Positions 5,828 through 33,400 of a stretch of DNA of 64,000 nucleotides are shown in pieces (position 1 is the first letter of the stretch; each line of letters starts with the position of its first letter). Source of the stretch: a virus; the IMG/VR virus record IMGVR_UViG_3300013093_000020; one strand, 5' to 3'. The translations under genes and the position numbers were made by a program. Below the pieces are notes generated by a model that ran no database searches, was not told the DNA's origin, and worked only from the letters and a program-made list of their open reading frames with translations.

Positions 5828-6603
5828 TTTGCTGCAGGAGCAGTCGGAGCTTGCGTAGGAAATTTCTTTCTAAATAAATGACCGTAGGTTGGTGATCCCG
5901 GTCTTATATCCTTGTACATATTCCAGTAAACAGTTTCAGCTTCCTTGGGATTATTTTCATCAGGCAAATTACTATCCGGTGGCGGAACATTAGATGCCGG
6001 AGGTTTTGGAATTTTACCATCGTCGTTGCTCGGAGGTGACGAAACATTGTCTATGGTACTGATACCAGTTGACGGGCCACCTTTAAGCAACCAATGTACA
6101 GGATCCTTGTCAGGAATAGGTCGATACCAACCTTGCTTTTCCATCCATCGTGGATCTACTGTCTTGGAAACATCGATGGCATTTTTATGGAATATAATAT
6201 CTTTGCGACCTTTATACTTAGGATCGTCAGGGTTTATTGGAATATAGACATTAGGATCTTTGTTCAGCCAACGGTTGTATAAATCTTTCTGCTGTTGATA
6301 TGTGCGCTCTTGGCTAGTGATAGGTAGTTCTTTACCAAATTCAGCTTTGTAAGCCTGTTTGAGTTTTTCCACTGCCTGTTTGAATTGGGGCTGTACAGTT
6401 GGTGCAGGTTCTGCATGAGTAATACCAGATGCTTCGTCCGGAGTAACATCATAGACATAGACTTTGACTTTGTCTATCTGAGCCTTGTATTGAGGATAAG
6501 TTTTAATAATATAAGCTTCAAAAGTCTCATGTGCCATATTGTCGGGCACATCAAATCTTTCTTCTTTACCATCAGGAAATACTACTAAAACTTTCCTGGT
6601 CAT
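5824..6603 (-). CDS. Protein with peptidase M15-like (L-Ala-D-Glu/D-Ala-D-Ala peptidase) domain
   Basis: ITSQERTYQQQKDLY...H..AIDV...GWYRP...DPVHW pattern of M15 Zn peptidases; Pro-rich C-terminus. Confidence 0.65.
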   Translation of the reverse strand: MTRKVLVVFPDGKEERFDVPDNMAHETFEAYIIKTYPQYKAQIDKVKVYVYDVTPDEASGITHAEPAPTVQPQFKQAVEKLKQAYKAEFGKELPITSQERTYQQQKDLYNRWLNKDPNVYIPINPDDPKYKGRKDIIFHKNAIDVSKTVDPRWMEKQGWYRPIPDKDPVHWLLKGGPSTGISTIDNVSSPPSNDDGKIPKPPASNVPPPDSNLPDENNPKEAETVYWNMYKDIRPGSPTYGHLFRKKFPTQAPTAPAAN

Positions 6604-7499
6604 TTTTTATCCCAGCCGTGGAATTCCATGTGCCCAGCATCTGATTTTTCATCAGATGAAGATGACGAACTGCTGCTGTTTGATTGAGATTTAGGTACAG
6701 GTACAGGCACGGGCTCCGGGGTCGAAGACTTTGCGGCTTCTTTCTGACTGGAGATCCAACTTAGGACCTGTCCTGGTAAAGGGTCTAACATGGCTTGATT
6801 GTTATCTGCCAGTTTGTCAACTTGTAGCGCATACCATTCACCAAATTTAGTCACTGTGTCCCAGAAAGCAGGATTACGATTTAGTTCTCCTCCAACCTTC
6901 ATATCAGCATAAGTGCCGCACCATCCAGCTACTACATCTCTTACTCCGTCACTGTTGGCGATCCTTGATCCGATATAGTCAGGTACAGCACGGGGAATAA
7001 ACCCTAGACCAAATTGGCGTAGTGCTCCTTTGAGCAGGCCACGACTGGCCATACCTGCTGCTAAATTACCTACTAGTTCAGCCAGTAAATGTTGGCGATT
7101 GGCAGTAAACTGCTCCTGTGTCATGCCATTCTCATGATTGTCAAGCTGTCGCTTGAACATGGCATCTGCATTGATAAAATTTGTAATAGGTTGAAGTACT
7201 TCGGGTAGTACTACTAGATATCTAATAGCTAGATTTACACTCTTAACAGCTACAGATGTAGTAAGTTTAGCTGCTCCAACTCCAGGAATACTGCTACCAG
7301 TACGAGATTTTCTTAATTCTTTTTCACGACGCTTCAGTTCTGCTTCTCGAGCTGCTAGTTCTTTTTCTCGAAGTGCTGCTTCTCTCGCAGCCAGTTTTTC
7401 AGCCGCAGTCATTTCTTTACCTGTAGTCTTTCCCCCAAACTTTAACCAGTCCAGTACGCCTTCATTTGTTTGTTCGCTGATAATATCTGTGATTTTCAT
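6600..7499 (-). CDS. Putative internal head/ejection protein
   Basis: ATG at 7499 gives MKITDIISE, resembling T4 capsid-targeting leaders; coiled coil plus hydrophobic segments; GGTAAATA late motif at 7522-7529. Confidence 0.5.
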   Translation of the reverse strand: MKITDIISEQTNEGVLDWLKFGGKTTGKEMTAAEKLAAREAALREKELAAREAELKRREKELRKSRTGSSIPGVGAAKLTTSVAVKSVNLAIRYLVVLPEVLQPITNFINADAMFKRQLDNHENGMTQEQFTANRQHLLAELVGNLAAGMASRGLLKGALRQFGLGFIPRAVPDYIGSRIANSDGVRDVVAGWCGTYADMKVGGELNRNPAFWDTVTKFGEWYALQVDKLADNNQAMLDPLPGQVLSWISSQKEAAKSSTPEPVPVPVPKSQSNSSSSSSSSDEKSDAGHMEFHGWDKK

Positions 7500-7529
7500 A
7501 TTCAATTCCGAGAAGTTTACATATTTACC

Positions 7530-8002
7530 ATTGTGTGGAGATGTACTGCGTACATCTGTTCTTCGCTTCCGCTCGAACTTGTCTTCTTATTAGAAAAGGC
7601 AATAAAACGCGAAGCGTTTAAGATATTATCCAGATTGTTCAGTCACACTTTGCCCAGGCAGGGCAAAGGACATTATCCGAGTTGAACATGTCACTTAGCG
7701 TTAGGGCATTACAGAGGCGGTCATCCGGTACCTCGAGCCCCGTCTTTATACGACGGCAATCTGCTGACATACGCTAACACATCCGCAGATCCGTGGGTTT
7801 TCCCCACTCCTTTAGCCTTTTTAAAAATTTACGGCAAGCATCAAACTAGTTGTATGAAGGCATATCTAGTCATCGTCCGGTCAAGGATAGTGATGCATGA
7901 CCCTGCCGTCAAGCAAGGAATTTCCGTGACTGCGATCCGAGATCCAGCTGTAAGGGCACAAAATTACATCGCCAGTGCGGGCTTATTTGACGGTTTTAGA
8001 GC
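7530..8002 (-). ncRNA. Candidate large structured non-coding RNA (family not recognised)
   Basis: Largest intergenic gap in the window, GC-richer than flanks, about ten stems and a loop-downstream pairing (7695-7701/7771-7777); boundaries approximate. Confidence 0.6.
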
Positions 8003-8437
8003 CTAGTTTTCTTGGAGTTTACGAATGTGTGAACCATGTACACGCACTTGAATATGACCATTATAGTAGTCGTTTGATTCAAGAACTCTGCGTGAAAACT
8101 GTTCGCGGGCCTCAACATAGCTGCATTCTGCCTTGCTACGGCAATAAAAAAGTATCTCTCTACGGAAGTTTTCAACTCCTAGAGCTTGTACATCACGAGT
8201 TAATTCAGGTGACGATCCATAGTAATCTCGCCAGTCGGAATCAATTTTGCTTCTGATCTTCTTTTTCTTTTTGTTGCCGTTCTTTAATTTTACTGTTCGA
8301 TATGTGGTCTTTGAGAATTTTGCCAGCTTTTTGCCTATATACATGCGCCCTGTTGAGATGTTAGTGATGATGTAGACGAAGCCCGCACAGTCGTCCGGGA
8401 GTTCTTCTACAGTTTGGGAATTGAAAAGCCATGTCAT
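8003..8437 (-). CDS. Short GIY-YIG endonuclease
   Basis: GFVYIITN...YIGKK, YYGSS, conserved Glu and YYN; no C-terminal NUMOD/HTH extension. Confidence 0.85.
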   Translation of the reverse strand: MTWLFNSQTVEELPDDCAGFVYIITNISTGRMYIGKKLAKFSKTTYRTVKLKNGNKKKKKIRSKIDSDWRDYYGSSPELTRDVQALGVENFRREILFYCRSKAECSYVEAREQFSRRVLESNDYYNGHIQVRVHGSHIRKLQEN

Positions 8438-8442
8438 GACTT

Positions 8443-8706
8443 CTAATTATCATCATTGCCTTGTGCCTTGAGTTGTTTTTGAGCGAGCCTACGAGCTTTG
8501 GCCTGTTTCATGTCTTCGTTCTTCCAGTGACGCCATTCTTGTAGCACAATACGGCGTTCACTGCATAATCTGCGTATTTCACTCATAGCATTACGAGTGT
8601 CCATACATGCCCGTTTGGTCCCAGTGTTCATCCAACGCTGGTTAGCTTCGAAGTAAGTTCGAAATGCAGCCATTAACTGAGCATGTAATTCTTCATCCTG
8701 ATGCAT
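8443..8706 (-). CDS. Small basic helical protein (possibly Hc1/histone-H1-like family)
   Basis: 87 aa; GTKRA..TRNAMSEIRRLC..RR pattern; coupled to gp46 stop. Confidence 0.45.
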   Translation of the reverse strand: MHQDEELHAQLMAAFRTYFEANQRWMNTGTKRACMDTRNAMSEIRRLCSERRIVLQEWRHWKNEDMKQAKARRLAQKQLKAQGNDDN

Positions 8707-10487
8707 TATTCTGTGACTTCTAGATCCGTGGCATATGATGTAAAGCCATTTTCTTTGATGACTTTGAGTACATTGTTAACACGACCTACAAGCTCGTCCC
8801 TGTGCGATATTAAGAACACATTCTTTTTGCGTTCTCGAGTCATCTTTTTCAGCACAGCCAGTGCAGATTCGACGCCTGAGCTGTCTAGTCCATTGTCTAT
8901 GAGCTCGTCTACAAACAGCAAGTTTACATTTTGATATAGACTTTCCCACACATCGCGGAACGCCCAACTTAGTCCTAGGATCAAGCGATTGCGTTCACCA
9001 CGCGATAAGTTGTCAAAGTCTAAATCCTGTCCTAGCTGTGTAATTATCACGGTCAAGTCATTTTGAAAAACTACAGTATGTGGTAGACCCATGCGATCTA
9101 GATAGTAAGTCAATCGGTTATTCAAGTAAGCTAGGTTCTGATCAATGATCTTCTTGCGTATAAATGAATCTTTAGACGTTAATAGCTTGAGCAAGAATTC
9201 TTGATGCTCCCGCATAGTGGTCAAACTGTTGATTTCATCAAAACTAATTGCCTGTATGGCTGTGTTGCGCAGTTCATCTATCTGTTCTTGATAAGGATCA
9301 GACTCGCCTGCACGGATAGTTAGATTAGTTTCTAGAGTGTTCAAGTTGTTCTGATGCTTGAGAGCCTGCTCAACAGTGTCATAGTAAGTGTCCGGACGGC
9401 CATTTAGCTCGCCAATGGCTGAAATTTCAGCTGTGAGCTTGGCGAGGTCCGCAGCGATCTTGTCTTGATACTGTTGTGATTCTGAGAGATGTTTCATGGC
9501 ACCGGCAGTCATCTCCTCGTGTTTGTGATCATGCAACTGTTGATCGCAAGCATGACACTTCTTATTACTGAGAGAGGCCAACTCTGCGGTATACTTTTTT
9601 ACCGCTTTTTCCGCTTGCGCTAGCGCAGCGTCTAACGTCGCTCGTTCCTTATTCAGGCTTTTTAGCTTCTGCGAAGCTTCTTCGTAAACTTTTAGCTCCG
9701 CATGCTTCGCAAGCTCAGCTTCAATATCTACGCTCTCTAGTTCTACAATCGCGCGGCCGATCTTTTCAAGATCTTGAGTTTGCTGTTGTCGCCATGCACT
9801 TTGTTTCGACAATAATCCATCAACACTTTTTTGAATATTATCATTTGACTTCTTAGTAGCTTCGATATCTGCATTTGCTTGGAATATAGCTTCTTTAGTT
9901 TGTCTGACTAGTTCTTTAAGTGCTTCTGCTTTTTCACTTAATAGTGTAATACCTAGTAATTGTTCAATGATTACTCGTTGATCATTGGCTTTCATACTTA
10001 AGAAAGGCTCATTGTATGTGTTAAGCGCAATGATGTGCTTGAACATGTCGTGACTCATACCTAGTAAATCATCTAGATCCTTTTGTGTCTCACGCATATC
10101 CCCTTGAGCATCATCGGTTTCGCCTGTATCTTGTTCTTGATCATTGACAAAGAATTTTAATACATTAGGTTTGCGACCTCTTTCAATACGATAGCTAGCA
10201 CCATCTTTTTCAAATGCCAGCGTAACTAGCATATTCTTATTATTGATCTTATTGATCAAGTTATCTTTTTTAATATTAGTGAGCGCATTACCAAATAAAG
10301 CATAACTCAGTGCATTGACAATAGTTGTTTTACCTGTGCCGTTGCGTTCTCCGCTATCGCCGCCGCCTTGATCTAGATTCTCTCCTAGCACGAGTGTTAG
10401 GTTTTCTTGATCTAAATCAACTGCTTGGGTACTATTACCCACGCTCATAAAGTTTTTAACTGTTAATTCTTTTAATTTGATTGTCAT
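8706..10487 (-). CDS. gp46: Recombination ATPase subunit (gp46/SbcC/Rad50)
   Basis: KNFMSVGN, Walker A NGTGKTT, CHAC zinc hook in coiled coil, LSRGE signature, LLFVDE, ISH. Confidence 0.95.
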   Translation of the reverse strand: MTIKLKELTVKNFMSVGNSTQAVDLDQENLTLVLGENLDQGGGDSGERNGTGKTTIVNALSYALFGNALTNIKKDNLINKINNKNMLVTLAFEKDGASYRIERGRKPNVLKFFVNDQEQDTGETDDAQGDMRETQKDLDDLLGMSHDMFKHIIALNTYNEPFLSMKANDQRVIIEQLLGITLLSEKAEALKELVRQTKEAIFQANADIEATKKSNDNIQKSVDGLLSKQSAWRQQQTQDLEKIGRAIVELESVDIEAELAKHAELKVYEEASQKLKSLNKERATLDAALAQAEKAVKKYTAELASLSNKKCHACDQQLHDHKHEEMTAGAMKHLSESQQYQDKIAADLAKLTAEISAIGELNGRPDTYYDTVEQALKHQNNLNTLETNLTIRAGESDPYQEQIDELRNTAIQAISFDEINSLTTMREHQEFLLKLLTSKDSFIRKKIIDQNLAYLNNRLTYYLDRMGLPHTVVFQNDLTVIITQLGQDLDFDNLSRGERNRLILGLSWAFRDVWESLYQNVNLLFVDELIDNGLDSSGVESALAVLKKMTRERKKNVFLISHRDELVGRVNNVLKVIKENGFTSYATDLEVTE

Positions 10488-11497
10488 AGGCTGTTATAAA
10501 TGGCTAATAGCATGTTTTTGTCAAAGGCATCTGATTCGATACTGACTAATTGATTGCTTACAATTTGATTTACTGATTCAAATGCTTGTATATCAATATC
10601 TGTACTAATCTCAAGTTGCTTTTTCTCAGCTATTAGTGTTAATTCTCGTATCTTGTACTTGGCCATAAAGTCTTCTTTGATAAAGCTGGCCTCTTCAAAT
10701 GTAATATCAATGTCAAGCGCAACTCTTAAATGTTGATTAGGCTTAACAATAGTATCGGCTTCGTCAATTAATTGACTTAGTTTTACAGTACGGAATGTGG
10801 GTTGATTGGGCCAGCTAAAGTATTCAGGCTCTCCTCCCCATTCTAATACCATCATACCACGATCATCGTCCCACGCATCGGCATAATTGTGCGGAAATGC
10901 ATTGCCGATATAGATCATATTCTCCTGCCGTTGGCGCTTATGAAAGTGCCCACTGAACCCTAGCTCATAGTTTTGAAAACTGTCAAGTTGTATCTCCCCA
11001 TGATCTGGCATCTGGATCATGGCATTCATAAAAAAGTTAGGCAATTCAAAGTGACCAAAGATATATTTGCCACCTTTCCTTCCTACAGTTTTCCATTCTT
11101 CACCAACGAGCCAGGGACACAGTGTGACATTTCCAATAGTAGTAGGCTCATGTACCACAGTGACGCCAGGTATATACTTTCCAAACTCCACACTGTGTAT
11201 GTCCCGTTTGTCTTTATAGTACAGATCATGATTACCAGGAAAGAAATAGAAGTTATCAAACGCCTGCCCCAGCTTTTCCAAGGCCCTAAGGCTATAATCC
11301 ATTGTAGTAATGTTAAGGCTATTGCGATTATGATGCCAATCGCCCATAAAGATACCTGTATCACATCCTTCCTCCTTGGCTTTTGCAATAAACCAATCTA
11401 CGAAATCTTCGCAGTCTTGATTGTGTATTGATGAATTGCTCTTTAGACCGAAATGAATATCGGTAAAGCAGGCTACTTTTTTAAATAAATTACTCAC
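10484..11497 (-). CDS. gp47: Recombination nuclease subunit (gp47/SbcD/Mre11)
   Basis: DIHFG, GD, GNHD, GHF, SGHFH metallophosphoesterase motifs; adjacent to gp46. Confidence 0.95.
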   Translation of the reverse strand: MSNLFKKVACFTDIHFGLKSNSSIHNQDCEDFVDWFIAKAKEEGCDTGIFMGDWHHNRNSLNITTMDYSLRALEKLGQAFDNFYFFPGNHDLYYKDKRDIHSVEFGKYIPGVTVVHEPTTIGNVTLCPWLVGEEWKTVGRKGGKYIFGHFELPNFFMNAMIQMPDHGEIQLDSFQNYELGFSGHFHKRQRQENMIYIGNAFPHNYADAWDDDRGMMVLEWGGEPEYFSWPNQPTFRTVKLSQLIDEADTIVKPNQHLRVALDIDITFEEASFIKEDFMAKYKIRELTLIAEKKQLEISTDIDIQAFESVNQIVSNQLVSIESDAFDKNMLLAIYNSL

Positions 11498-21000: not shown

Positions 21001-21489
21001 ATTAAGAGTATTAGCGATGACATAGTTTATCATCCTGTTACCTATGTTCAATTGTTTGGACAAACTGCCGCATCTGAATTACAAGCAAGTTTCCAAGTAA
21101 TTATTAATCCTGAACAGGTAGTATCTGCTAATGATGTCAAATCAAGAATTATTACAGCTATTAATGAGTTTTTCTCTGTTAATAATTGGGATTTTGGAGA
21201 TACATTCTATTTCACCGAACTTTCAACTTATGTGATGAATAAACTAAGTCCTGATATTACCATGTTTATTATTGTACCAAGACAAGGGACTAGCAACTTT
21301 GGTAGCTTATTTGAAATTACATGTAACGGTGACCAATTGTTTATTAGTACAGCAACAGTTAATGATATTGAGATAGTCACAGGCATAACCGCTACCGGCA
21401 TTAAAGCAATTCCAACCCAGGCAACAATGTCGACGACAGCATCAAGTCAAATTATTTTAAGCACAGCATACGGATCTTTAAATGGCTGA
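18037..21489 (+). CDS. gp6: Baseplate wedge protein gp6-like
   Basis: DFDNLRRTMIDY..DFNDY, ESILRLANLVGYNPKR, FSDGIFG, QDRMITGEDY; AATAAATA late motif at 18013-18020. Confidence 0.85.
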   Translation: MTSTTRQNTLLAAEDWHKIYQSFRNADFTSYDFDNLRRTMIDYIRTNYPEDFNDYIESSEYLALIDLIAFVGQSIAYRVDLNARDNFLELAERRESILRLANLVGYNPKRNMSANGLLKVTSVTTTEIVLDSNGRNLANQTILWNDSANTNWYDQFFKIINAAFPSGQQFGNPADSATIYGIPTQQYRFNSNIGAVPVFAFTETIGGQPMSFEVTSTTFNGQSYVYEEPPSVKNNLACIFRDDGYGYGSPTNGFFLNFTQGTLTQGTFTISQPTSNESVDIAANNINNTDVWLYGLDVNGNESTLWTQVPALQGNNIIYNSLKKNIKNIFQVVTQANDAVALQFSDGIFGNLPLGTFKVYYRVSNGLSYIINARDIRNVSISIPYLSASNQQQTLTLNLSLASSVVNATTSESNASIKTNAPQTYYTQDRMITGEDYNINPLAASTQVVKVKAINRTSSGISRYFDLIDPTGKYSSTTLFGTDGALYTEYYLNEFLFSFVTQTDIQGIIYNDIFNILADTNLKNFFYSNFKINNTSPSVWTTVTSDSNSTTGYFLSTIANLPAKIGTNSTSTLYYAQIGSLVKFTAPAGTYFDTTNYNSITTIPNSGLPDNATQVLWSEIVGVVGDGTTTKTVTGLGPVTLNKKIPTNAIVSAIIPAWATVIDSYTVNTIINLIASYQTFGLTFNTYSQSWQIIIDTNLDSNDAFSLNFQGNNANKQLDASWLLLFSTDKISYTVKIREQRYIFESANQINFYFDGSKKIYNNVSNTVVKDGITVLNINKQPFSTNSFTIDQPWQIISEYIGIDGFVDNTKLVVGFNQTDSNQGVDNPETFYNIVYGGSPVEPTYILQQKYSVTDGQEDYQYVANTGQVIIITTNNPLQSLTSYTDGQYFYYPDSDTTFKLHLATATLNPTLDYKVFVGRDNLKFQYIHNADYESRVDPGASNIVDIYVLTQNYDTQFRQWVAGAIQTEPLPPGTDELYDLLSPNLNLIKSISDDIVYHPVTYVQLFGQTAASELQASFQVIINPEQVVSANDVKSRIITAINEFFSVNNWDFGDTFYFTELSTYVMNKLSPDITMFIIVPRQGTSNFGSLFEITCNGDQLFISTATVNDIEIVTGITATGIKAIPTQATMSTTASSQIILSTAYGSLNG

Positions 21490-24400
21490 TCAAACTAATC
21501 AAAATGGCAATAATTTTGCCAGCTCAACTATAATTCCTCGCATCTATCAATCGGATGCAAATAAAAAGTTTTTAACTGCTACCTTAGACCAGTTAATGCA
21601 GTCTGGTACGGCTAAAAAAATAAATGGTTTTATAGGTAGAGAAAATGCAAAAGCATCGACTGGTAAAGATGTCTATGTGGCAGCAGTTGACCAAACAAGA
21701 CAAAATTATCAACTTGAACCTGGGTTAGTTATAAAAGATACATTAGGTAATGTTACTTTTCTTAAAGATTATCAGGATTACATTAATCAACTAACAGTCT
21801 TTGGAAGTAATACTAGTAACCATGCTAGACTAAACAAACAAGAAATGTATTCTTGGGATCCGCATATCGACTGGGATAAGTTTGTTAATTTTCAAAACTA
21901 TTATTGGTTACCATATGGCCCGGATGTTGTTAAAATTTCAGGGCAACAAAAAAATATAGTTAGTACCTATACTGTTAATCTAGTTGACGAAGGCGGCAAC
22001 TATCAGTATGTCTTTACACCTGATGGTCTAACACCTAATCCTACAATTACTTTATACAAAGGGCAGACATATAAATTTGAAGTTAATAGTCCTGGAAATC
22101 CTTTTGCAATAAAAACATCTAGAACTGCCGGTAACTTAGATTTTTATAATGAATCTGAGCTAATAACTAATAATGGTGTTGAGGTAGGTACATTAACCTT
22201 CTCAGTTCCAGAAGATGCTCCTAGCCAATTGTATTATTTGAGTAATAATGATGCTAATGCTGGCGGATTGATTTTAGTTCTTCCAATAACAGATAACTCT
22301 AGTTTAGACGTTGAAAAGGATATATTAGGAAAGAAGAATTATACTTTACCTTCGGGAATTTCTTTAAGTAACGGTATGAAGGTAGCTTTCGAAGGAACTA
22401 TTACACCGAGTAATTATTCGTCTGGTACTTATTATGTTGAAGGAGTAGGGACAAGTATATCTCTTGTATCTTCGGACTTGCTAGAAATTATAAAACCCTT
22501 TACAGCTGCAGATCCTGTGCCGTTTGATAGCGGAGGATTTGATACACAACCTTTCAGTGATGCAACTTCTTATGCTGGAACAAATGATTACATCGTAATT
22601 AATAGATCTAGTAGAGATCAAAATCCTTGGTCAAGATTTAACCGTTGGTTCCATAAGGATGTAATAACTTTGGCTGCAGAAGCTAATGGGGATATTCCTA
22701 ATTTAGATCAGGCAAGTCGAGCGATTAGACCTATTATAGAATTTGAACCAAATATAAGATTGTACAATTTTGGTACTAAAGCATTAGCCGATGTTGATTT
22801 GATAGATACTACAACTACAGATGTTTTTAGTTATGTAGAAGGAAAATTAGGCTACTATATAGACGGTATAGCAGTCGCAAACGGACAACGGATTTTATTT
22901 ACAGCAGATACTGATTTGTTTGTAAAAAATAAAATATTCCAAGTAAATTATTTAAACATCGAAGGATCCAACCAAATCCATTTAACATTGGTAGATACTC
23001 CATTAGAAGATAATTGTGTTTTAGTAAAACAGGGTGTATCTAATCAAGGACAAACTTACTGGTTTGATGGATCAGTTTGGATTTTAGCACAACAGAAAAA
23101 TACAGTTAATCAACAACCATTATTTGATATTGTTGACAAAAATAAAATTAAATTCTCTGATATAACAACATATACCGGATCTACATTTGCCGGAACAAAA
23201 TTATTTTCTTATGCAGTTTCGTCAACAGGAACTACAGACTCTGCTCTAGGTTTTCCTATAAAATACAAAAATATAGACAATATTGGTGATATAGTTTTTA
23301 ATTTTAATCTAGCACAAGATTCATTTACATACAAATTGAATAATACTATTGTTAGTAAAAATGTTGATACCGGATATCTCATCAGAACATCACTTGACGG
23401 ATCTGCAGAATACATTAATGGCTGGCAAATTACCAGTATACCAGTTACCCAAGCTGCAATACGCATTTATAAAAATTCAGGATTAGTAAATAATTTTATA
23501 ATTGATATTTTTGATGACGTTAATAATTTAGATGATCTAATTGTAAAAATTTATATTAATGGTACACGATTAGGTTCGGAAAATTGGACGATTGCGAGTG
23601 GTACTACATTTAAAACAGTTGTACTAAACACAGATATATTAACTACTGATGTTCTTACAATAAGAGCATTTTCTGCCCAACCTATAAATGATAAAGGGTA
23701 TTATGAGATACCTTTAAATTTACAAAATAATCCTTTAAACAGTAATATTGATACATTTACTTTAGGAGAAGTGATAGATCATGTTGGTTCGATTGTTGAC
23801 AATATTTCTGGTTTTGTCGGGGTGTTCCCTGGTACTAGTAATTTAAGAGACATTGCTAATCTATCTACTTATGGTACAAAATTTGTACAGCATAGCGGAC
23901 CGTTAAGTCTTGGATTGTATCATGTAACAAATCAAGATACTAACATTATCAAAGCAATTGAAAAGTCGCAGAATGATTATAATATTTTTAAAAGAAACTT
24001 TATAACAGTTGCTGAAAACATCGGTATTGATACTGACACAATTTCTTTAGTAGATTTAATTCTAGGAAAAATTAATTCCACTAAATCTAATACTGGACCT
24101 TACTATTTTAGTGATATGGTTCCTTATGGAGCTAGTATAAAAACTGATATTACAGTTTTAGATGGCAGGACAAAAACTTATCCACTAAGTGCAGTTTTTA
24201 ATTTAGATTCATTATCTTCTAAATCGGTATTGATTTATCAGAATAAAAATCAATTAATACATGGACGAGATTATACCTTTGATAATCAAGGATTTGTTAT
24301 TATTACCGATTCTGTAAATTTGCAAGCAGGCGACATAATTTCAATATTCGAGTATGAAAATACTGATGGATCATTCGTTCCAGAGACTCCTACTAAATTA

Positions 24401-27400
24401 GGAATTTGGCCGGCTTATGAACCTAAATTGTACCTAGATACTAGTTTAATTAACCCTGTGATGGTAATCCAGGGGCATGATGGTAGTCAAATACTTGCTT
24501 ACGGTGATTATAGAGATAATTTAATTTTAGAATTAGAAAAAAGAATTTTCAATAATATCAAAGTAAAATATGATCCAACAATATTTGATATACATGATCT
24601 AATTCCCGGGTATACTAGAAACACAGACTATACTTTAGATGAATTTAATGAAATACTTGCACCATATTTTTATAAATGGGCTACACTAGTTGATAAAGAT
24701 TTTACAACTCCATTAAGTTTTGATAGAAATAACCCATTAACTTTTAATTATAAAGGTCATTATGCTCCCGATGGCCGACCAGTTCCAGGTTATTGGAGAG
24801 GAATTTATCGTTGGTTGTTTGACACAGACCGTCCTAACTTATGTCCTTGGGAAATGTTAGGATTTACCATCGAACCTGTATGGTGGAATTCAGTATATGG
24901 ACCTGCACCATATACTAGTGATAATTTAGTTTTATGGCAAGATATTGCCAATGGTGTAGTTAGAGATCCATCTGCTGCACCTTATGTAATTACGAAATTT
25001 ATTCGTCCTTGGTTAATTAAACACATTCCTGTTGACAGTCAAGGAAATATACTTAGTCCGTACGATGCCGGTGTTGCCCAGGGCACTATAACTTATGATA
25101 CTGCTGGCGATTATATATTCGGAGATGTAAGTCCTGTAGAGGCGGCATGGCGTAGAGGAAGTTATTATCCATTCGCTGTATTACTAGCATCTTTATTACT
25201 ACAGCCTGCTAAAACAATCGGAACACTATTAGATCGTTCAAGAATAGTAAGGAATTTATCTGGCCAATTAGTTTATTCTGACACAGATAACAGGATTAAC
25301 CCAGGTTCGATTGAATTACCTGGCTTATATAATAGTATTTCTACTACCAGGACCGCTGGAATAATAAATTATGCTATTAACTATGTATTGGGAGATAGCG
25401 TAATTAAGTACAACTCTTATGCTTACGATTTATCTAATATTAATACAAATTTAACTTACAGGATTGGAGCATTCACCAGTAAAGATCAATTTAATATTAT
25501 ATTAGATTCGAGAACCCCATTGAGTACGAGTAGTAGTGTTTTTGTTCCTCAAGAAAATTATGATATAGTATTAAATTCGTCAAGCCCTATAACTAAAATT
25601 AATTATAGCGGCGTTATTGTAACAAAGTTAACAGATGGTTATACTGTTTCTGGTTACATCTTAACTAATCCTTACTTTGAATATTATGATTATCAAGGTA
25701 CCGGTATATCAGTTAATGTCGGTGGAGTGAGCCACTCCTATCTAGTATGGCATCCAAAGCAAACCTATGCCCCAGGAAATATTATTCAATATAATGGACA
25801 ATATTATTCAGTATTGTCCTTGCACACTACTATTGAAATATTCCAATCTCAGTATTATTCAGTTTTAGGAGCTTTACCAGTCACTGGCGGAGTTAATGCT
25901 TATTTTAAAAATACCTGGGACAAATCAAAAGTAATTAAAGTTCCTTATGGGACAAAATATAGTCACATACAAGATGTGGTAGACTTTTTGCTTGGATATG
26001 GTGAATACTTAAAAGATCAAGGATTTATTTTTGATGAATATAATAATAATCTTAATGCTATATCTAATTGGGAAACAAGTACTAAAGAATTTATGTTCTG
26101 GACTACACAAAATTGGAGTACTGGAATAGACAAGTGGCAAGAATGGTCTCCCACACAAACTATTAATTATAATTCTATAGTGAGATATGATGGTGATTAT
26201 TATCAAGCATTACAGACAATCCAACCGGGAGATGCAACACCTAATACTAATAGCCACTATATAAAATTAGATGGATTAAGCACAGTAGGAAGTAGTGTTA
26301 TAAGTCTAAGTCCAGCAGCAAATAAAATAACCTTCAATGTACCATTGGCAGTTGTTGATGATATTACTAATCAATTCAATGGTTATGGAATTTACAAAGT
26401 TGATGGAACTGAATTTGATTTTCAATCTTTGTCATCATTTCGAAACGGCAATATAGTAACTTACACTCCCGATAACAATGACGGGATATACGGTGCTACT
26501 TTTTATCTAATACAGCAGGAACAAATTGTTATTATAGATAACAGTACAATGTTCGGTGACATTATCTATAATCCAGAAACTGGATATAGACAAGAACGAT
26601 TAAAAATATCTAGTTATGTTACTGTAGGCTGGTATGGCGGATTTGATGTTCCTGGATTTATTATAGATCGAGCACAGATTAAAAATTGGGAATCTTATCA
26701 AGATTACAGTCTAGGTGATATTGTATTATATCAACAATTTTATTATACAGCTAATAAATTTTTATCAGGCTCACAGTCATTTGAAGTTACAGCCAGTAAC
26801 GGATCGGCAAATTGGATTAGATTAAAATCTAAGCCACAACCGAAATTGATTCCAAACTGGACATACAAGGCTACCCAATTTACAGATTTTTATAGCCTTG
26901 GTGGAGATAATTTTGATACAAATCAACGCTCAGTTGCTCAACATTTAATCGGTTATCAGAAAAGACAATACTTGAATGATATTATACAAGACGATGTAAG
27001 CGAATTTAAATTTTATCAGGGAATGATATATGAAAAAGGAACACAAAATGTTCTTAATAAATTATTCGATGTACTAAGTTCTGATAACCTAGAAAGTTTA
27101 AATTTCTATGAAGAATGGGCCGTTCGTGTTGGACAGTACGGTAGTTCTAATGCGTTTAATGAAATAGAATTTATTTTAGATGAATCTAAATTTATTACAA
27201 CCCCGCAAGGATTTGAGTTATTACCGTCAGTAACTCAATCATACAAAGATTTTATCATAAGATTATCTCCTAAAGACATTTATCTTCCACCTTCTTCATA
27301 CGATAGCAATCCTTGGCCGTTAATAACAAATTACCAAAGTTTTCTAAGAAGCGCAGGTTATGCAAGATTAGACGAAGTAGCAGTTACTCTGAATTCTTTA

Positions 27401-30400
27401 AGTGACATAACATCTCAGAATATTAATAATTTTAACGAGGGTGATTATGTTTGGTGCGGTTTTGAAAATATAAGTTGGAACATTTATAGATTAGTAAGGA
27501 CAAATATTAGAGTTTCTAATATTCTTTATAGCAATAGTGTTCTAACAATATCTACTACAAAAGATTTAGGATCAATAGTTGCTGGATCCTATATAGGTTT
27601 GAAAGAAACCGGAATAGTGGACATTAACGGAACTTATGTGAATTCATTTGATGGGTTTTATCAAGTAAGTTCTGTTACAAATAGTACAATGACTATTAAT
27701 GTTTCTTTGCCTAAACAACCATCTAATCCTTTTACAGGGCAAGCAGACATTGTACTGTTTACTTTTTTAAGTCATCGTGCATCAAGTATTGATGTTCTTG
27801 ACCAGGTAGTTACACCTGATTTGAAATCTGGCGAGCTGGCATGGACTGACGACAACGGTAACGGCCTTTGGAGCACATGGCAAAATAATCCAGTATATGA
27901 TGCATTTGAAGTAGCAAGCCCCTCAACATCAACTGGTTTAGGATTTGGATCATCTGTTGCTATAAGCCAACAAGGCAATATTCTAGCCACAACTAGCAAC
28001 TCTGGCGAGTTGATAATATACACAAAAATTAATTCAAACGCCCCATGGCAAATTAAGCAAGGTATTTTTATACCGTCCGGACTTATTGCACCTTATACCT
28101 TAGCATTATCGCCAGATAGTATATGGCTAGCAGTGGGCGTTCCGAGTGCAGCAAATGGCCAAGGTACTGTATTACTATATGAACAAGATAGTAATAAAAT
28201 TTTTAATCTAAAAGATACTGTAGTAAGTCCTAATCCGACTAACGGTGAAAATTTTGGATCAAATATACAATTTAGACAAACTTCCCCAGCCAGCTCTAAC
28301 AATTACAAATACTATACACTATTTGTGGGAGCTTCTGGTCACGGGTCCGGAACAGGCATTGTATATACAATTGATTATCAACAAGTTATACAGGCTTCTG
28401 CTATATATGACCCGAGCAATAGCAGTGACGGGGCGGTTACTAATATTATTGTTACTAATCCGGGACAACACTACAGTACAAATCCACCGCCAACAGTATA
28501 TATAACAGCGCCGACAGGAAATGTTCGTTCACAGGCCACAGCTTCTGCAACAACAGCGATTGTATCTGCTACTGTATATTCAACAATTGATTCCAACGGA
28601 ATCAAATTATACTATGGCGGATCTGGATACAATCTTGGAGATAAACTAAAAATTAATGGCGGAGTAACAAGCGGGTCATATGCTATACTAGAGGTAGTAG
28701 ATGTAAATTTAGATCCAGGATCTACACAATATGCTGTAGGCGGGATTAAATCAGTAGTTGTTAATTCATACGGTAATTATATTGCTTTCCCTTCGGGAAT
28801 AGTACCAACAACTAATCTGACCGGTTCTGGTAGCGGCGCAGAATTTTTATTAGATACCGGAGTCATATCAGTTCAAATTACAAATCCAGGTAATGGTTAT
28901 AGCCAGCCTCCTACAATTAGATTCTTAGGTGGTGGTGCTGGTGCCGAAGCTTACGGACTGATCGGCACTGCTGTAGTATTATCTAGTGTAAGCGGGATAG
29001 CACCGGGCATGATAATTTCTGGTACAGGATTTGTTAGCGGGCAAAAAGTATTACAGACCATAAATTCTTCTAGTACTGTAATTTTATCTGGAGCTCCTGA
29101 TAGTACACCTAGCGGTGTAATGAACTTTATTATACCAGAATGGAATCATGCAGGAATAGGATCAATTATAGCCCCGTCGGGTATCGGCTTTGGAGCATCT
29201 TTAAAATCATGTTTATCGACCCTGGTAGTGTCTGCACCCGGCTCATATGGTATTGCTGGCAAAGTATTCGTTTATACAAACATTGATTCGGGTTACACAT
29301 CACCTAGCCTAATTACTAATAATATTCAATATTTTGGATCTAGTATAGATTTGTCATCAGATGCTAAGTGGCTAGCGATAGGGTCGCCGTATGATTCTGA
29401 CACATATCTAAACCAAGGTTCAGTCAATGTCTATAACTTATCAAACTTGACGACTGTGTATCAAAGAATTCTAAGTAACAAGGCAGAGAAGAATGAATTA
29501 TTTGGTATAAAATTAGGTTGGATGAATAACAATCAAACTTTGGCAATTTATAGTGCAGGAGCAGATTCAGTAGTAGATGAAACCTTTGATGGGAATTCTA
29601 CAAAATTTGATAGTGCGTTTACAAAATTTAGAATTACAATTTTAGGAGATGGTAGGGTTGATATTTACGATAAATATAATAAGAATTATATTTTCAGTGA
29701 AAGCCTAGCTAATATTGCAGATATAGATAGTTCGAGCGGAACGCCAACTTATACTGGTAGAAACTCTGCATATGGATCTGGATTTACAGTAGGAACTAAT
29801 ATTGTAGTTGTGGGTGCCCCGTCGGCAATAGTTAATCATGTTCTTCAAGGTAGAATATTTTCATATAGTAAGGCGCCTAAGGTATTAAGTTGGAAAATTT
29901 TACATACTGAAATAGCTAAAACTGATTTAACAAAGATAAAAAGAGCATTCATTTATAATAGAGTGTCTAATAAAGTTGTTACATATTTGGATGTAATAGA
30001 TCCATTACAGGGAAAAATACCGGGCCCCGCCGAGCAAGAAATAACATATAAGACATTTTATGATCCTGCGTTGTATTCGGTTAGTGATGTTACAGGAGTC
30101 AATGTGAATCCGGGACAGGCATGGGGCAAGGCACAAGTTGGAACACTATGGTGGGATTTAAGAACTGCTAAATTTATAGATAGTCATGATGATGATATAA
30201 TATATAGAACTAGCAGTTGGGCTACCCTATTTCCTGGAGCTAGCATTGATATCTATGAATGGGTGCAAACAACTTATACCCCTAGTCAATGGAATGCTTT
30301 AGCAGACACTATTGCCGGCCTAGCGGTCAATATCAGCGGTCAAAGTTTGTACGATAACAATACATATTGTCTGGTGAAAAAATACGACAATATTAGTAAA

Positions 30401-33400
30401 ACTATAAAAAATATATATTATTTCTGGGTAAAGAACAAAGCCGTAGTTCCTAAATTGCCTAATAGAACAATACCTGCAAGTGGAGTGGCCCAGCTTATCG
30501 GTAAGCCAGAAACTTATGGCTACAGTTTTTTAGCTCTAACCGGATCAAACAGTTTTAGTTTATTTTTAAATGATGTAAAAACAACTGTGAAAGGTACTAA
30601 TTCAGTACTTAGTGTACAATATTGGACTATTGATAATCCTAAAACAGCTAACATACATAGACAATATGCGATTATAAATGATAATCCCAATACTATTTTA
30701 CCTTCTAAAATAGAACAAAAATGGTTTGATAGCCTATGCGGAAAGGATCAGAATGACAACGATGTCCCTGATATTTCCCTCCCATTAAAATTACAATATG
30801 GCGTAGAATTCAAACCTCGTCAAAGTATGTTTGTAAATCGTATCGAAGCCTTGAAACAACTTATTGAGCAAGTAAATCGATACCTGATAACTTATGAAGT
30901 TGTAAATCAAAGAGACATTTCGCCTTTAAATTCATATGATACTCCGCCTGTTTATTCGGGAGCAAATAATACTTTATTTGTACCTAGTGGTCTTTTTGAT
31001 ACCGTTATAGATACTGATGCAGAATTAGTTTTTATTAATGTTGGTAATTTTACCAAACCTACACTACAGCCTATCATTGTTAATGGTAGAATTACTGGAG
31101 TAACTATCGTTGATCCTGGATTTGGATATTTCCAATCGCCTTACATAGAAGTTATGGGTACGGGAACAGGTGCAAAGATTAAAACTGTTGTAACTAATCG
31201 TAAAATAACTGGTGTAGAAGTATTATCAACTGGTGCTGGGTATGATTCTAGCACAAGTTTAATTTTAAGGAATTATTGTGTTTTAGTTCTAAATGATAGT
31301 CAAGCAAATAATACTTGGAGCATTTGTTCCTACGATACAACTAGCCAGACATGGTCAAGAATACAAACTCAAAGATATGATGTTAGAAATTATTGGTCTA
31401 AAGTTGACTGGTATGCATCGGGATATAATAGTTTCACTGGCATCGATTATTCAGTGAATACTTTTTCTGATTTGAATAATCTGACAACAAATATAGGACA
31501 GATAGTTAAAATTAAAAATACGAGCCAAGGTGGCTGGATATTATTAGAAAAATTTGCTTCAGCAAATAGCGCAGACTGGACACAAAGTTATAAAACTATA
31601 GCTGTTGAAAATGGAACTATTCAATTTAGTTCAGGATTATATAACTTTTCTAATACTGTCTATGGTTTTGATGGAGCATTGTATGATGGTGCAGACTTTG
31701 ATAATTCAGCAAGCACTGAACTTAGAATTATTTTAAACACTATAAAAAATAATATTTTAATAGATGATTTAAAACAAAATTATTTAGATTTATTTTTCTA
31801 TAGTGTAAGATATATCCTAAGCGAACAAATAGAAGTTGATTGGATTTTTAAAACCAGTTTTGTAAAAGCACAGCATAATGTGGGAGCATTGAACCAACCA
31901 GTAAATTATCAACCTGATAATTTACCAGATTTTCAAAATTATATTGCCGAAGTTAAACCTTATCGAACAAAGATAAGAGAGTATGTGAGCGATTATACAT
32001 ATACCGATCCTACAAATAGTGCTAGTATAGATTTTGATTTGCCACCTATGTACGAAAATGGAAAAATAGTTCCGGTACAAGCTACAGTACAAGATGGTCA
32101 GATAATTGTAGATAATGTAGCAATTGATTCTAGCGATCCGAGATACTATTGGAAACAAAATGCAGGTTATAAAGTTATTAATCTTGTAATAGTTGATGGC
32201 GGTCACGGATACCAATCAGAACCGATAGTTGAGTTTGTCAGCAATTCTGGAACAGGGGCACAAGCAAGGGCATTTATAGCAAATGGTTCTCTAAGAAATA
32301 TTATTCTTACTAATACCGATGCCTATGGAGCATCCGGAAATGGATATTTGTCTGCGCCACTAGTAGTTTTGAATGGCGGATTAATTGATGGTGGTAAACC
32401 GGCTAGGGTAGTTGCAATAATTGGCGATAGCCCTGTTAGATCTATCAATGTAGGAATTAAATTTGACAGAACTACTTATGGCTATTTCATAACTCAACTG
32501 ACAGAAACAGAAACATTCATCTCTAACGGCACCCAATTACAATTTCCGTTAAAATGGTCACCGAATATAGTTTTAGGTACTAATACAGTTACGATCGATG
32601 GACAGCCTGCCTTAAGAAATACATATACTCTCACCACAGTTGAATCAACATCTAAAGGTTATAGGAGTTATACCGGATTGCTTACTTTCTTATCAAATGT
32701 AACTAAGAATGCAGTGATTGAAATAACATACACAAAGAATTGGAACTTACTAAACGCTGCAGATAGGATTCAATACTACTATAATCCAACAAGTGGTATG
32801 CCAGGAAAAGATCTTGCACAACTAATGACAGGTATTGATTATGGTGGGGTAGCAGTCACCGGTATCGGATTCGATGTATCATATGGTTGGGATAGTGCTC
32901 CTTATTATTCAGATACTTGGGACAATAGTCAGGTATCATTCAATGACTATGCAGTTATAGTCGGAGCAGGAAATCACCTAATAACACTACCATATGTTCC
33001 ACCCGGTGGCACTGAGCTTAACATTTATTATAAAAAATGGTATGTTGAAACACATACAAGCACTGGTGTAGAAACGACATTTACATACAACATTAGAGTA
33101 CAGACACCGCAGATAACAGCGACCTTGATTAAGCCTTTAAGTTCGTCAAGTTTTACTAATATTGGCGGAAGTAATATATTAACACTTAGCGATACAAATG
33201 GCATTGAATTAAATGATATAGTAGCCATAACTCCAACATCGGCTAATTCTCTGTTATTAGAAACTTATGTTTCAAACATTAGCGGAAATACTGTTACTTT
33301 GTCTGTCAATGATCCTAACACAGGATTACCGACCCCAAGTGTATTATATAATACTCAAAACAGTTCTAATTCAATTGCATTTGATACTTCTTATGTTCTT

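What the first reader, a model, noticed from the sequence alone, without database searches (positions are those of the whole stretch)
7530..8002. ~470-nt highly structured non-coding element immediately downstream of a minimal GIY-YIG nuclease
Seen: the only large gap in a gene-dense window, full of complementary segments: 7539-7546/7550-7557, 7605-7610/7614-7619, 7636-7641/7683-7688 enclosing 7648-7655/7661-7668, 7704-7707/7737-7740 enclosing 7714-7717/7731-7734, 7740-7744/7752-7756, 7759-7764/7785-7790, 7793-7797/7803-7807, 7831-7842/7892-7909 enclosing 7845-7849/7866-7870. The loop segment 7771-7777 pairs with 7695-7701 (pseudoknot). On the minus strand there is an imperfect repeat GTGAC...GGATAAT twice (7694-7672, 7646-7625). 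A G-U extension favours the minus strand, co-oriented with the nuclease. I could not match group I/II intron, RNase P, tmRNA or tRNA cores. Inference: an undescribed large phage ncRNA or ribozyme; because the 144-aa nuclease has only a catalytic domain with a Lys-rich insert and no NUMOD/HTH, the two could form a ribonucleoprotein, possibly RNA-guided. A replication origin is the main alternative.
Basis: partly seen in the sequence, partly recalled or inferred. Interest (0 to 1): 0.85.

Follow-up and report, generated by a model that had tools for sequence, protein, structure and literature searches.

The report
Extended Polynucleobacter-1 twin-box phage RNA
The gene-free stretch behind a small nuclease gene of this uncultured giant T4-like freshwater phage encodes a real, about 450-base, doubly knotted non-coding RNA whose first third is the catalogued but unexplained Polynucleobacter-1 motif, whose uncatalogued rest shows one 7-letter word twice, and whose function is still unknown.

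Summary
Window 7539-7985, minus strand, is one conserved non-coding element about 450 nt long. Rfam places its 5' third (7983..7835) in RF01718, Polynucleobacter-1 RNA (73.4 bits, gathering score 37).

The remaining 300 nt are in no Rfam family. They are conserved at 70-80% identity in 93 distinct relatives and carry no conserved ORF. A 92-pair model with two pseudoknots is 88% paired, against 71% in shuffles and 36-42% in slid controls.

Two direct repeats 47 nt apart (7684-7669 and 7637-7622) carry the same 7-nt word. The word changed at least 24 times on the tree, always in both copies. I found no third partner in cis.

The nuclease looks like a neighbour rather than a partner:
- Freshwater Burkholderiales chromosomes hold the RNA beside a DUF6641 gene and have no GIY-YIG gene.
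- Three phage loci carry a PD-(D/E)XK nuclease in the same slot.
- Relatives of the GIY-YIG gene in four isolated phages that I checked have no such gap or RNA.
- No GIY-YIG residue tracks the word.

An RNA-guided nuclease, a replication origin and a leader for the downstream gene are not supported. The scan has found this family before in many other genomes.

New here are the DUF6641 link, the PD-(D/E)XK replacement, and a hypervariable downstream gene with a capsid-targeting-like N-terminus.

The parts
7539..7985 (-). Whole conserved structured RNA element, about 450 nt (extended Polynucleobacter-1 / twin-box RNA)
   Evidence: Conserved from about 7985 to about 7530 in 93 distinct relatives. 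Element length is 425-490 nt in most. No conserved ORF. 92-pair model: 88.3% paired against 71.2% shuffled; covariation score 0.446 against 0.169; 0 of 500 shuffles reach it.
7835..7983 (-). 5' domain: match to Rfam RF01718, Polynucleobacter-1 RNA, model positions 1-141 of 141
   Evidence: cmscan 73.4 bits, gathering score 37, E 1e-13. Helices 7978-7974/7960-7956, 7896-7891/7843-7838 and 7871-7866/7849-7844 covary.
7760..7807 (-). Middle hairpins: 7807-7804/7796-7793, and an 11-bp hairpin 7789-7779/7770-7760 with a UUAGCGUA loop
   Evidence: All 11 pairs of the long hairpin show changes on both sides (helix 10). They are among the top corrected mutual-information pairs.
7696..7776 (-). Pseudoknot 1: hairpin loop 7776-7771 pairs with 7701-7696
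   Evidence: 6 bp, 96.7% paired, 6 of 6 pairs with changes on both sides (helix 11).
7704..7754 (-). Knotted core. Pseudoknot 2 (7754-7750/7724-7720) crosses helices 7740-7737/7707-7704 and 7733-7730/7718-7715. Holds the near-invariant GGUACCGGAYRACCGCC.
   Evidence: Pair 7752:7722 is CG 36 / UA 35. Pair 7751:7723 is GC 33 / AU 26 / GU 5. Pair 7740:7704 shows five standard pair types. Pair 7733:7715 is AU 46 / UA 22.
7669..7684 (-). Twin box R1: CAA-CUC-[GGAUAAU]-G-UC; the 7-nt word is 7678-7672
   Evidence: Identical to R2 at every variable word position in 68 unique sequences. Fixed CUC and G distinguish it from R2.
7622..7637 (-). Twin box R2: CAA-UCU-[GGAUAAU]-A-UC; the 7-nt word is 7631-7625
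   Evidence: 7678/7631 GG 34, AA 34; 7677/7630 GG 63, CC 4, AA 1; 7674/7627 AA 51, GG 17; 7672/7625 UU 61, AA 6, GG 1. At least 17, 4, 6 and 4 concerted changes on the tree. No third column covaries with them.
7648..7668 (-). Hairpin between the boxes (CUUUGCCC / GGGCAAAG)
   Evidence: 83% paired, with compensatory variants (helix 16; alignment).
7605..7619 (-). Hairpin AAACGC-UUC-GCGUUU followed by a U-rich tract: terminator-like, a possible 3' end
   Evidence: Terminator-like site in the consensus scan. The stem covaries, UA 29 / CG 22.
7539..7578 (-). Conserved tail: GUUC-GA-GC-GGAA-GC-GAA-GAAC (GNRA-type loop, G/A-rich internal loop) and the 8-bp hairpin 7557-7550/7546-7539
   Evidence: Helices 20-22, with changes on both sides. 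Present whatever the downstream gene is.
8003..8437 (-). Upstream neighbour: 144-aa GIY-YIG protein
   Evidence: Pfam SegE_GIY-YIG, 4.6e-33. At least 579 relatives in IMG/VR. In 120 loci the RNA starts a median 26 nt behind it.
6600..7499 (-). Downstream neighbour: 299-aa ORF starting MKITDIISE. Not part of the RNA.
   Evidence: 40 distinct relatives have a downstream ORF starting MK[VI]x[ED]II[ST]E and then diverging completely, 240-510 aa long. No tblastn match to the body of the protein in any locus.

Best explanation
The gap encodes a self-contained structured non-coding RNA of about 450 nt. It is a full-length member of the family whose 5' third is catalogued as the Polynucleobacter-1 motif (RF01718). 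It is read from the minus strand, probably together with or just after the nuclease gene.

Shown: the RNA folds into the RF01718 domain, two middle hairpins, a core locked by two pseudoknots, and a 3' domain. In that 3' domain two apparently unpaired copies of one 7-nt word each sit between a GUGAC element and a hairpin.

Inferred: the RNA acts in trans, and the twin words are two docking sites for one sequence-specific reader. A direct contact between the two boxes is the main variant of this idea. I put the twin-docking mechanism at about 0.3.

The nuclease gene is a fixed neighbour in these phages and is not required by the RNA.
For: - Rfam match above the gathering score over the whole model.
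- 70-80% identity over the whole 450 nt in dozens of contigs, with no conserved ORF.
- 92 pairs are 88.3% canonical against 71.2% (shuffled) and 36-42% (slid). 73 pairs show changes on both sides. Both pseudoknots are supported.
- G-U 546 against A-C 199 cells on the minus strand.
- The twin words are identical in 68 of 68 sequences at all variable word positions. The word changed at least 24 times on the tree, and the commonest switch at least 17 times, always in both copies.
- Columns between the boxes are not linked to the box state, so shared descent of a block does not explain the identity.
- The same twin arrangement, GAACUC-N7 / GAAUCU-N7, carries entirely different words (AUCGAAA, AGCGAAA, ACCAAAA) in the bacterial type.
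- Independence from the nuclease.
- A family that moves: RF01718 is found in 9-10 of 101 genomes of the genus of G001, in one or two copies each. In Limnohabitans Bal53 it is a small module among housekeeping genes.
Against: - No transcript data, so the ends are inferred only from conservation and one terminator-like hairpin.
- No reader was found. There is no complementary column in the element, no complement of the word at a consistent place within 3 kb, and no further copies of the box in the 150-kb record.
- In phages a small nuclease gene always precedes the RNA (47 of 47 loci found through the RNA), so some functional tie to a nuclease cannot be excluded.
- The single-sequence fold energy is not exceptional.
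Confidence: 0.75

Rival explanations
1. Nuclease-RNA ribonucleoprotein. The RNA binds the adjacent small nuclease, and the twin words guide it to a nucleic-acid target.
For: - In phages a small nuclease gene always lies just upstream on the same strand: 44 GIY-YIG and 3 PDDEXK_15 in 47 loci found through the RNA, at a median distance of 26 nt.
- Replacement by a nuclease of a different fold keeps 'a nuclease' in the slot.
- The words are short, variable and unpaired, as guides are.
Against: - Three bacterial genomes hold the RNA and have no SegE_GIY-YIG match. There the conserved neighbour is DUF6641, which gave no informative fold match.
- Homologues of the GIY-YIG gene are in 498 isolate phage records; the four I inspected have no comparable gap, and Melnitz has no RF01718.
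- Eight loci have an extra 0.8-1.06 kb between the gene and the RNA.
- No GIY-YIG residue tracks the word above background.
- 7 nt is very short for a guide, and no target was found.
- The slot adjoins gp46/gp47, so the nuclease may belong to the recombination module instead.
Confidence: 0.05
2. Cis-acting leader or 3' UTR. The element controls translation or stability of the downstream capsid-tag gene or of the nuclease mRNA.
For: - It lies between two co-oriented genes.
- 40 distinct relatives have a downstream gene with the same conserved N-terminal tag.
- In the window, 9 nt of the tag's codons (GAUAUUAUC) are complementary to both boxes.
Against: - That complementarity is a coincidence of A/U-rich Ile codons. 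In the 40 loci the codons vary (GAA AUA AUC, GAC CUA CUA and others) without any matching change in the boxes.
- Many relatives, and all bacterial-type loci, have unrelated downstream genes.
- A terminator-like hairpin lies inside the element.
Confidence: 0.1
3. DNA-level element: a replication origin, or two protein-binding sites (iteron-like), or recombination sites whose 7-bp cores must match.
For: Direct repeats that stay identical within a genome while differing between genomes are typical of iterons and of the overlap regions of tyrosine-recombinase sites (general knowledge). The locus adjoins recombination genes gp46/gp47.
Against: - The rest of the element shows compensatory base-pair changes with a 2.7-fold G-U over A-C excess on one strand, which argues for an RNA.
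- The boxes have fixed, strand-specific differences (CUC against UCU, G against A) and no inverted-repeat arms.
- None of the neighbouring genes checked in the window, L037 or L098 matched a recombinase or initiator family.
- No relative among those aligned had a single box, as a recombination product would.
Confidence: 0.05
4. The twin boxes touch each other, as a purely structural tertiary contact between like bases, so there is no external reader.
For: - No third covarying partner was found anywhere.
- All differences between R1 and R2 are transitions, so purine faces purine and pyrimidine faces pyrimidine at every position in a parallel register.
Against: - A 16-nt parallel alignment of like-with-like bases has no precedent that I know of in natural RNAs (general knowledge).
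- An antiparallel R1:R2 duplex works for the commonest word, but the variant words do not support it (and my reading).
Confidence: 0.15

Closest known systems
Polynucleobacter-1 RNA motif (Rfam RF01718; Weinberg et al. 2010, Genome Biol 11:R31, PMC2864571)
   Same: The 5' 149 nt match the whole model at 73.4 bits. The habitat is the same (fresh water, Burkholderiales). The placement is the same, downstream of a conserved phage-like gene. The authors also saw a less regular 3' half.
   Different: The Rfam model covers only one third of the element. The knotted core, the twin boxes and the tail are not catalogued. The 2010 authors found the motif in no sequenced purified phage. Here it lies on contigs with T4-type portal, baseplate, gp46/47 and late sigma factor genes. 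Its function was and remains unknown.
Large ornate orphan RNAs of phages and prophages: GOLLD (RF01998) and ROOL (RF03087)
   Same: Several hundred nucleotides long, with many covarying helices and pseudoknots. Carried by phages and mobile islands, sporadic in host genomes, with no known biochemical role.
   Different: No Rfam match to them at any threshold. They have no twin identical words. The resemblance is one of kind, recalled from general knowledge, and is not evidence of relatedness.
Guide RNAs next to their nuclease genes: omega RNAs of IscB and TnpB (HEARO, RF02033)
   Same: A long structured RNA directly beside a small nuclease gene on the same strand.
   Different: Those RNAs carry one variable guide of 15-20 nt at an end and always occur with their RuvC-type nuclease (general knowledge). 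Here the words are 7 nt, internal and duplicated. The RNA also occurs without any GIY-YIG gene, and homologues of the GIY-YIG gene occur without the RNA in the phages checked.
Paired recognition sites kept alike within a genome: lambda nutL/nutR boxB, multi-site protein sponges such as CsrB
   Same: Copies of one short RNA site are kept the same within a genome while differing between relatives, because a single reader sees both. This is an analogy from general knowledge.
   Different: No reader is known here. The sites are 47 nt apart within one RNA, and they carry fixed differences in their flanks.
T4 internal proteins with the capsid targeting sequence (Virol J 2010;7:356, PMC3012670)
   Same: This concerns the downstream neighbour only. 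It has a conserved roughly 10-residue N-terminal tag ending I-x-E, in front of unrelated bodies at one hypervariable slot. The T4 head review describes T-even internal proteins as diverse apart from a conserved targeting sequence.
   Different: Neither loading into the capsid nor cleavage was tested. The T4 tag sequence itself (MKTYQEFIAE) is from my memory. The tag is not linked to the RNA in bacterial-type loci.

Membership tests
Polynucleobacter-1 RNA (Rfam RF01718) | Covariance-model score at or above the curated gathering score over the full model | tested here: met
   73.4 bits against a gathering score of 37, model positions 1-141 of 141, E 1e-13.
Polynucleobacter-1 RNA (Rfam RF01718) | The model's helices are kept by compensatory changes in relatives | tested here: met
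   Helices 1, 5 and 7 are 93-98% paired with changes on both sides. The second and third hairpins are weaker in my MAFFT alignment (73% and 64%).
Polynucleobacter-1 RNA (Rfam RF01718) | Lies downstream of the conserved gene family noted by the discoverers (GOS11034, similar to PSSM2_218 of cyanophage P-SSM2) | tested here: inconclusive
   The upstream GIY-YIG gene has 498 tblastn matches in isolate phages, mostly T4-like cyanophages. I did not check that PSSM2_218 itself is that gene.
RNA-guided nuclease system (omega-RNA type) | RNA and nuclease always occur together | tested here: not met
   The RNA occurs without GIY-YIG in three bacterial genomes and in 26 of 29 genome loci. Of the GIY-YIG homologues in isolate phages, the four inspected have no comparable gap and Melnitz has no RF01718.
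RNA-guided nuclease system (omega-RNA type) | A variable guide segment of fixed length at one end of a conserved scaffold | tested here: not met
   The only hypervariable stretches are a paired stem and an A/U-rich linker of variable length. The 7-nt words are internal and duplicated.
Group I / group II intron, RNase P, tmRNA, tRNA | Match to the family's covariance model or to ARAGORN | tested here: not met
   No such match at E up to 10 in 7300-8200. No tRNA or tmRNA in the window. Only 5 nt separate the GIY-YIG ORF from the preceding ORF, which leaves no room for a 5' intron half.
Type III toxin-antitoxin antitoxin RNA | Tandem near-identical repeats followed by a co-oriented toxin endoribonuclease gene | tested here: not met
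   Only about 16 nt of each 42-47-nt unit are alike. The downstream genes are unrelated to one another. No PADLOC match for the 301-aa ORF.
Sigma-70-type or phage-specific promoter pair (for the twin boxes) | The motif recurs upstream of other genes in the genome | tested here: not met
   Only the two copies in the window. The 12-mer gives 2 further matches in 150 kb, against 2 for the backwards control pattern.

The most novel reading that the evidence does not exclude
The twin 7-nt words are a matching device. The RNA reads the same short sequence on two nucleic-acid partners at once, for example two DNA or RNA molecules that are to be joined or exchanged. It would work with whichever small protein is encoded next to it: GIY-YIG or PD-(D/E)XK in phages, DUF6641 in bacterial islands. 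That would make it a new kind of RNA-directed pairing or recombination module that moves between phages and hosts.
Probability: 0.04. Interest if true: 0.9.

Novelty: new variant of a known kind. Interest (0 to 1): 0.6.

Why it matters
Polynucleobacter-1 has been an orphan Rfam motif since 2010. The 2010 authors found it in no sequenced purified phage, and my literature search found only their paper.

This window and its relatives show that the motif is the head of a 450-nt, doubly pseudoknotted RNA. That RNA is common on IMG/VR contigs related to this freshwater T4-like phage, and it also sits in small accessory modules of Polynucleobacter, Limnohabitans and related bacteria.

The twin words make the function question directly testable. 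Changing one box, or both to the same new word, is a clean genetic test. If it is a protein, this would be a phage-borne decoy or scaffold RNA.

Tried and rejected
1. Boxes as antisense to the downstream gene's tag codons. The window has a 9-nt match, but 40 loci show no covariation. Rejected.
2. Boxes as promoters. They do not recur in the window or in the 150-kb record. Rejected.
3. Only 49-87% canonical and no compensation. Rejected.
4. A third pairing partner in cis. No alignment column is linked to the box states, and the exact complement of the word has no consistent place within 3 kb. Not found.
5. Co-evolution of the GIY-YIG protein with the boxes. The best normalised mutual information for the main switch is 0.26, the same as for control columns. 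Not found.
6. Shared descent of a block holding both boxes. Columns between the boxes are not linked to the box state. Rejected.
7. A mini-hairpin formed by each box with its own 3' flank. The variants break it (my reading). Rejected.
8. What DUF6641 is. An AlphaFold model (pLDDT 72) gave only generic helical matches in Foldseek and VIA-align, no PDB sequence match, no paper, and no PADLOC or NCBIfam match.
9. PDB sequence search with the GIY-YIG protein. Only a marginal match to a mobile-intron protein, E 0.18.
10. DUF6641 in the phage record. None, but the record is only 41% complete.
11. RNAalifold on the gappy 760-column alignment recovered only part of the structure. The full model came from mutual information and inspection.
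12. Phage-derived nhmmer profiles of the 3' domains did not reach the bacterial type. There the twin boxes were found by pattern.

Full report
**What the window is.** The window is the first 64 kb, on the reverse strand, of a 149,680-bp IMG/VR virus record judged 41% complete. It encodes a T4-type portal protein, a baseplate protein, SbcC/SbcD-like gp46 and gp47, and a late sigma factor. It is therefore a large uncultured T4-like phage.

The gene order on the minus strand is gp47, gp46, an 87-aa ORF, a 144-aa GIY-YIG protein (8437..8003; Pfam SegE_GIY-YIG, 4.6e-33), the gap, and then a 299-aa ORF starting at ATG 7499.

**Checking the observation.** The gap is real and non-coding. In 93 distinct relatives the 430 nt behind the nuclease stop hold only short ORFs of inconsistent frame and strand.

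An Rfam scan gives one match above the gathering score in the whole window: RF01718, Polynucleobacter-1 RNA, at 7983..7835 on the minus strand (73.4 bits against 37, full model). Nothing else matches at E up to 10 apart from one chance hit, and ARAGORN finds no tRNA or tmRNA.

The fold energy of the single sequence is unremarkable on the minus strand (z -1.65). The argument therefore has to be comparative.

**Relatives.** I gathered relatives in two independent ways.
- A search with the GIY-YIG protein found at least 579 places in viral contigs. The best 80 are 73-86% identical.
- A search with a DNA pattern from the RNA's conserved 5' core found 117 stretches. Of these, 47 proved real and 70 were chance matches.

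blastn shows that the whole stretch from window 8004 to about 7539 is 70-80% identical in dozens of contigs. The best-conserved part, 7821-7539, lies 3' of the Rfam model. Element length is 425-490 nt in most relatives.

**Structure.** I aligned 73 elements (A1). Mutual information with average-product correction puts Watson-Crick-type pairs at the top and defines the helices. My model has 92 pairs:
- the RF01718 helices;
- hairpins 7807-7804/7796-7793 and 7789-7779/7770-7760;
- pseudoknot 1, the loop 7776-7771 with 7701-7696;
- helices 7740-7737/7707-7704 and 7733-7730/7718-7715, both crossed by pseudoknot 2 (7754-7750/7724-7720);
- hairpins 7668-7661/7655-7648 and 7619-7614/7610-7605;
- a tail with a GNRA-type loop, a G/A-rich internal loop and an 8-bp hairpin.

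On A1 this model is 88.3% paired, against 71.2% in 500 shuffles and 36-42% when partners are slid by 1-3 columns. Seventy-three pairs have changes on both sides. The covariation score is 0.446 against 0.169, and no shuffle reaches the observed value on any measure. G-U cells outnumber A-C cells 546 to 199, which fixes the folded strand as the minus strand.

The long-range stem 7636-7641/7683-7688 is not.

**The twin boxes.** R1 (7684-7669) and R2 (7637-7622) are 47 nt apart. In 68 unique sequences their variable positions are always the same base:

| R1 / R2 position | States |
|---|---|
| 7678 / 7631 | GG 34, AA 34 |
| 7677 / 7630 | GG 63, CC 4, AA 1 |
| 7674 / 7627 | AA 51, GG 17 |
| 7672 / 7625 | UU 61, AA 6, GG 1 |
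| 7682 / 7635 | AA 67, GG 1 |

Two differences between the copies are fixed in every sequence: CUC against UCU just 5' of the word, and G against A just 3' of it.

I built a tree from the rest of the element. On it the four variable word positions changed at least 17, 4, 6 and 4 times, always in both copies. The 7-nt word as a whole changed at least 24 times.

Other columns, including those between the boxes, are not linked to the box state. Neither shared descent of a block nor a cis partner explains the identity. The same layout, GAACUC-N7 and GAAUCU-N7, carries quite different words (AUCGAAA, AGCGAAA, ACCAAAA) in the bacterial type. There the identity is slightly looser at the word's first and last positions.

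**Is the nuclease a partner?** In phages the adjacency is tight. In 120 loci the RNA begins a median 26 nt behind the GIY-YIG gene. All 47 loci found through the RNA have a small nuclease gene upstream.

Several results argue against a required partnership:
- Three loci (L037, L098, L029) carry a PDDEXK_15 nuclease in the slot instead (2.5e-29 and 5.6e-30 for the two scanned).
- Eight loci have another 0.8-1.06 kb between the gene and the RNA.
- The GIY-YIG protein has homologues in 498 isolate phage records, mostly T4-like cyanophages where it is mislabelled 'NAD synthetase'. In Melnitz, phiM7, Yut3 and S-SSM7 no comparable gap follows it, and Melnitz has no RF01718.
- A scan of bacterial genomes found 29 loci. 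26 of them lack GIY-YIG. Three whole genomes with the RNA have no SegE_GIY-YIG match at all.
- No GIY-YIG residue tracks the box state above background.

The slot adjoins gp46/gp47, so the nuclease may belong to the recombination module instead.

**The bacterial type.** In Polynucleobacter rarus, Limnohabitans sp. Bal53 (two copies), two Burkholderiaceae chromosomes and many freshwater metagenome-assembled genomes, RF01718 is again the head of a conserved non-coding stretch of 440-510 nt.

In 23 of the 26 loci without GIY-YIG, a DUF6641 gene (PF20346, 44-100% identical) lies just upstream on the opposite strand. In at least one of the other three, the upstream DNA is cut off by the end of the locus. 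In about half of them a second small ORF, 142 aa in L228, lies beside it.

In Limnohabitans and in MiE-M28 this small module sits among ordinary genes such as dapB, a LysR regulator, aconitase and prpF. In P. rarus it sits beside an IS3-type transposase and a gene matching the candidate defence family PDC-S14.

RF01718 is present in only 9-10 of 101 genomes of that genus, so it is an accessory, probably mobile, element. DUF6641 gave no informative fold or sequence match.

**The downstream gene.** In the window and in 40 distinct relatives, the ORF after the RNA begins MK[VI]x[ED]II[ST]E and then diverges completely, with lengths of 240-510 aa. This looks like the capsid targeting sequence that T4 places on its diverse internal proteins (for the concept; the T4 sequence itself is from my memory).

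The 9-nt complementarity between these codons and both boxes in the window is a coincidence, because it does not covary. Bacterial-type loci have unrelated downstream genes. The RNA is therefore not a dedicated leader of this gene.

**What it most likely is.** It is a stand-alone structured RNA. Its twin, apparently unpaired words are most simply read as two docking sites for one sequence-specific reader. A direct box-to-box contact is the main variant. A terminator-like hairpin at 7619..7605 may mark a 3' end of about 390 nt, but the two tail hairpins beyond it are conserved and covary as well.

**Relation to earlier work.** Weinberg et al. 2010 described the motif, noted its position downstream of a conserved gene similar to one in cyanophage P-SSM2, and noted a less regular 3' half. 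My literature search finds no later paper.

Earlier agents of this scan reached the same 'extended Polynucleobacter-1 / twin-box RNA' reading on many other genomes. My analysis was done before I read those notes, and it agrees with them.

Noticed in passing
window 6600-7499 (-), and the ORFs after the element in L128, L137, L149, L157 and others: The gene after the RNA starts with a conserved tag, MK[VI]x[ED]II[ST]E, followed by unrelated bodies of 240-510 aa in 40 distinct relatives. It looks like a T4-type capsid targeting sequence on swappable cargo. It is the only such ORF in the window.
   Followed up: partly
L037:3963-4484, L098:8819-9385, L029 about 10521-11009: In three relatives the GIY-YIG slot between gp46 and the RNA holds a PDDEXK_15 nuclease (PF24608). 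A nuclease of a different fold has replaced it at the same place.
   Followed up: partly
L228:1399-1857 (-), L205:3094-3552 (-), L217:3133-3570 (+) and 20 other genome loci: In freshwater Burkholderiales the RNA is paired with a divergently transcribed DUF6641 gene, often with a second small ORF (142 aa in L228) beside it. They form a module of about 2 kb among housekeeping genes. DUF6641 has no recognisable fold or literature.
   Followed up: partly
L217:2-2398 (-): In Polynucleobacter rarus the gene after the RNA matches the PADLOC candidate defence family PDC-S14 at its N-terminus (1.5e-51), and an IS3-type transposase lies nearby.
   Followed up: no
window 21482-37054 (+): A single 5190-aa ORF, preceded by an 1150-aa ORF. 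It is a giant protein of unknown role in this phage.
   Followed up: no
whole window: The T4 late-promoter octamer TATAAATA occurs once, where about 12 are expected by chance. It is strongly avoided, or this phage uses a different late promoter.
   Followed up: no
window 8003-8437 (-) against gp46 8706-10487 (-), across loci L119-L198: The small GIY-YIG protein stays 68-86% identical in contigs where the core recombination protein gp46 is only 52-57% identical. That is unusually strong conservation for a protein classed with homing endonucleases.
   Followed up: no
window 7887 and 7875 (-): A non-canonical pair in the RF01718 hairpin CACUAUCC...GGACG switches U/C (49 sequences) to C/U (19 sequences), together with the loop type.
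   Followed up: no
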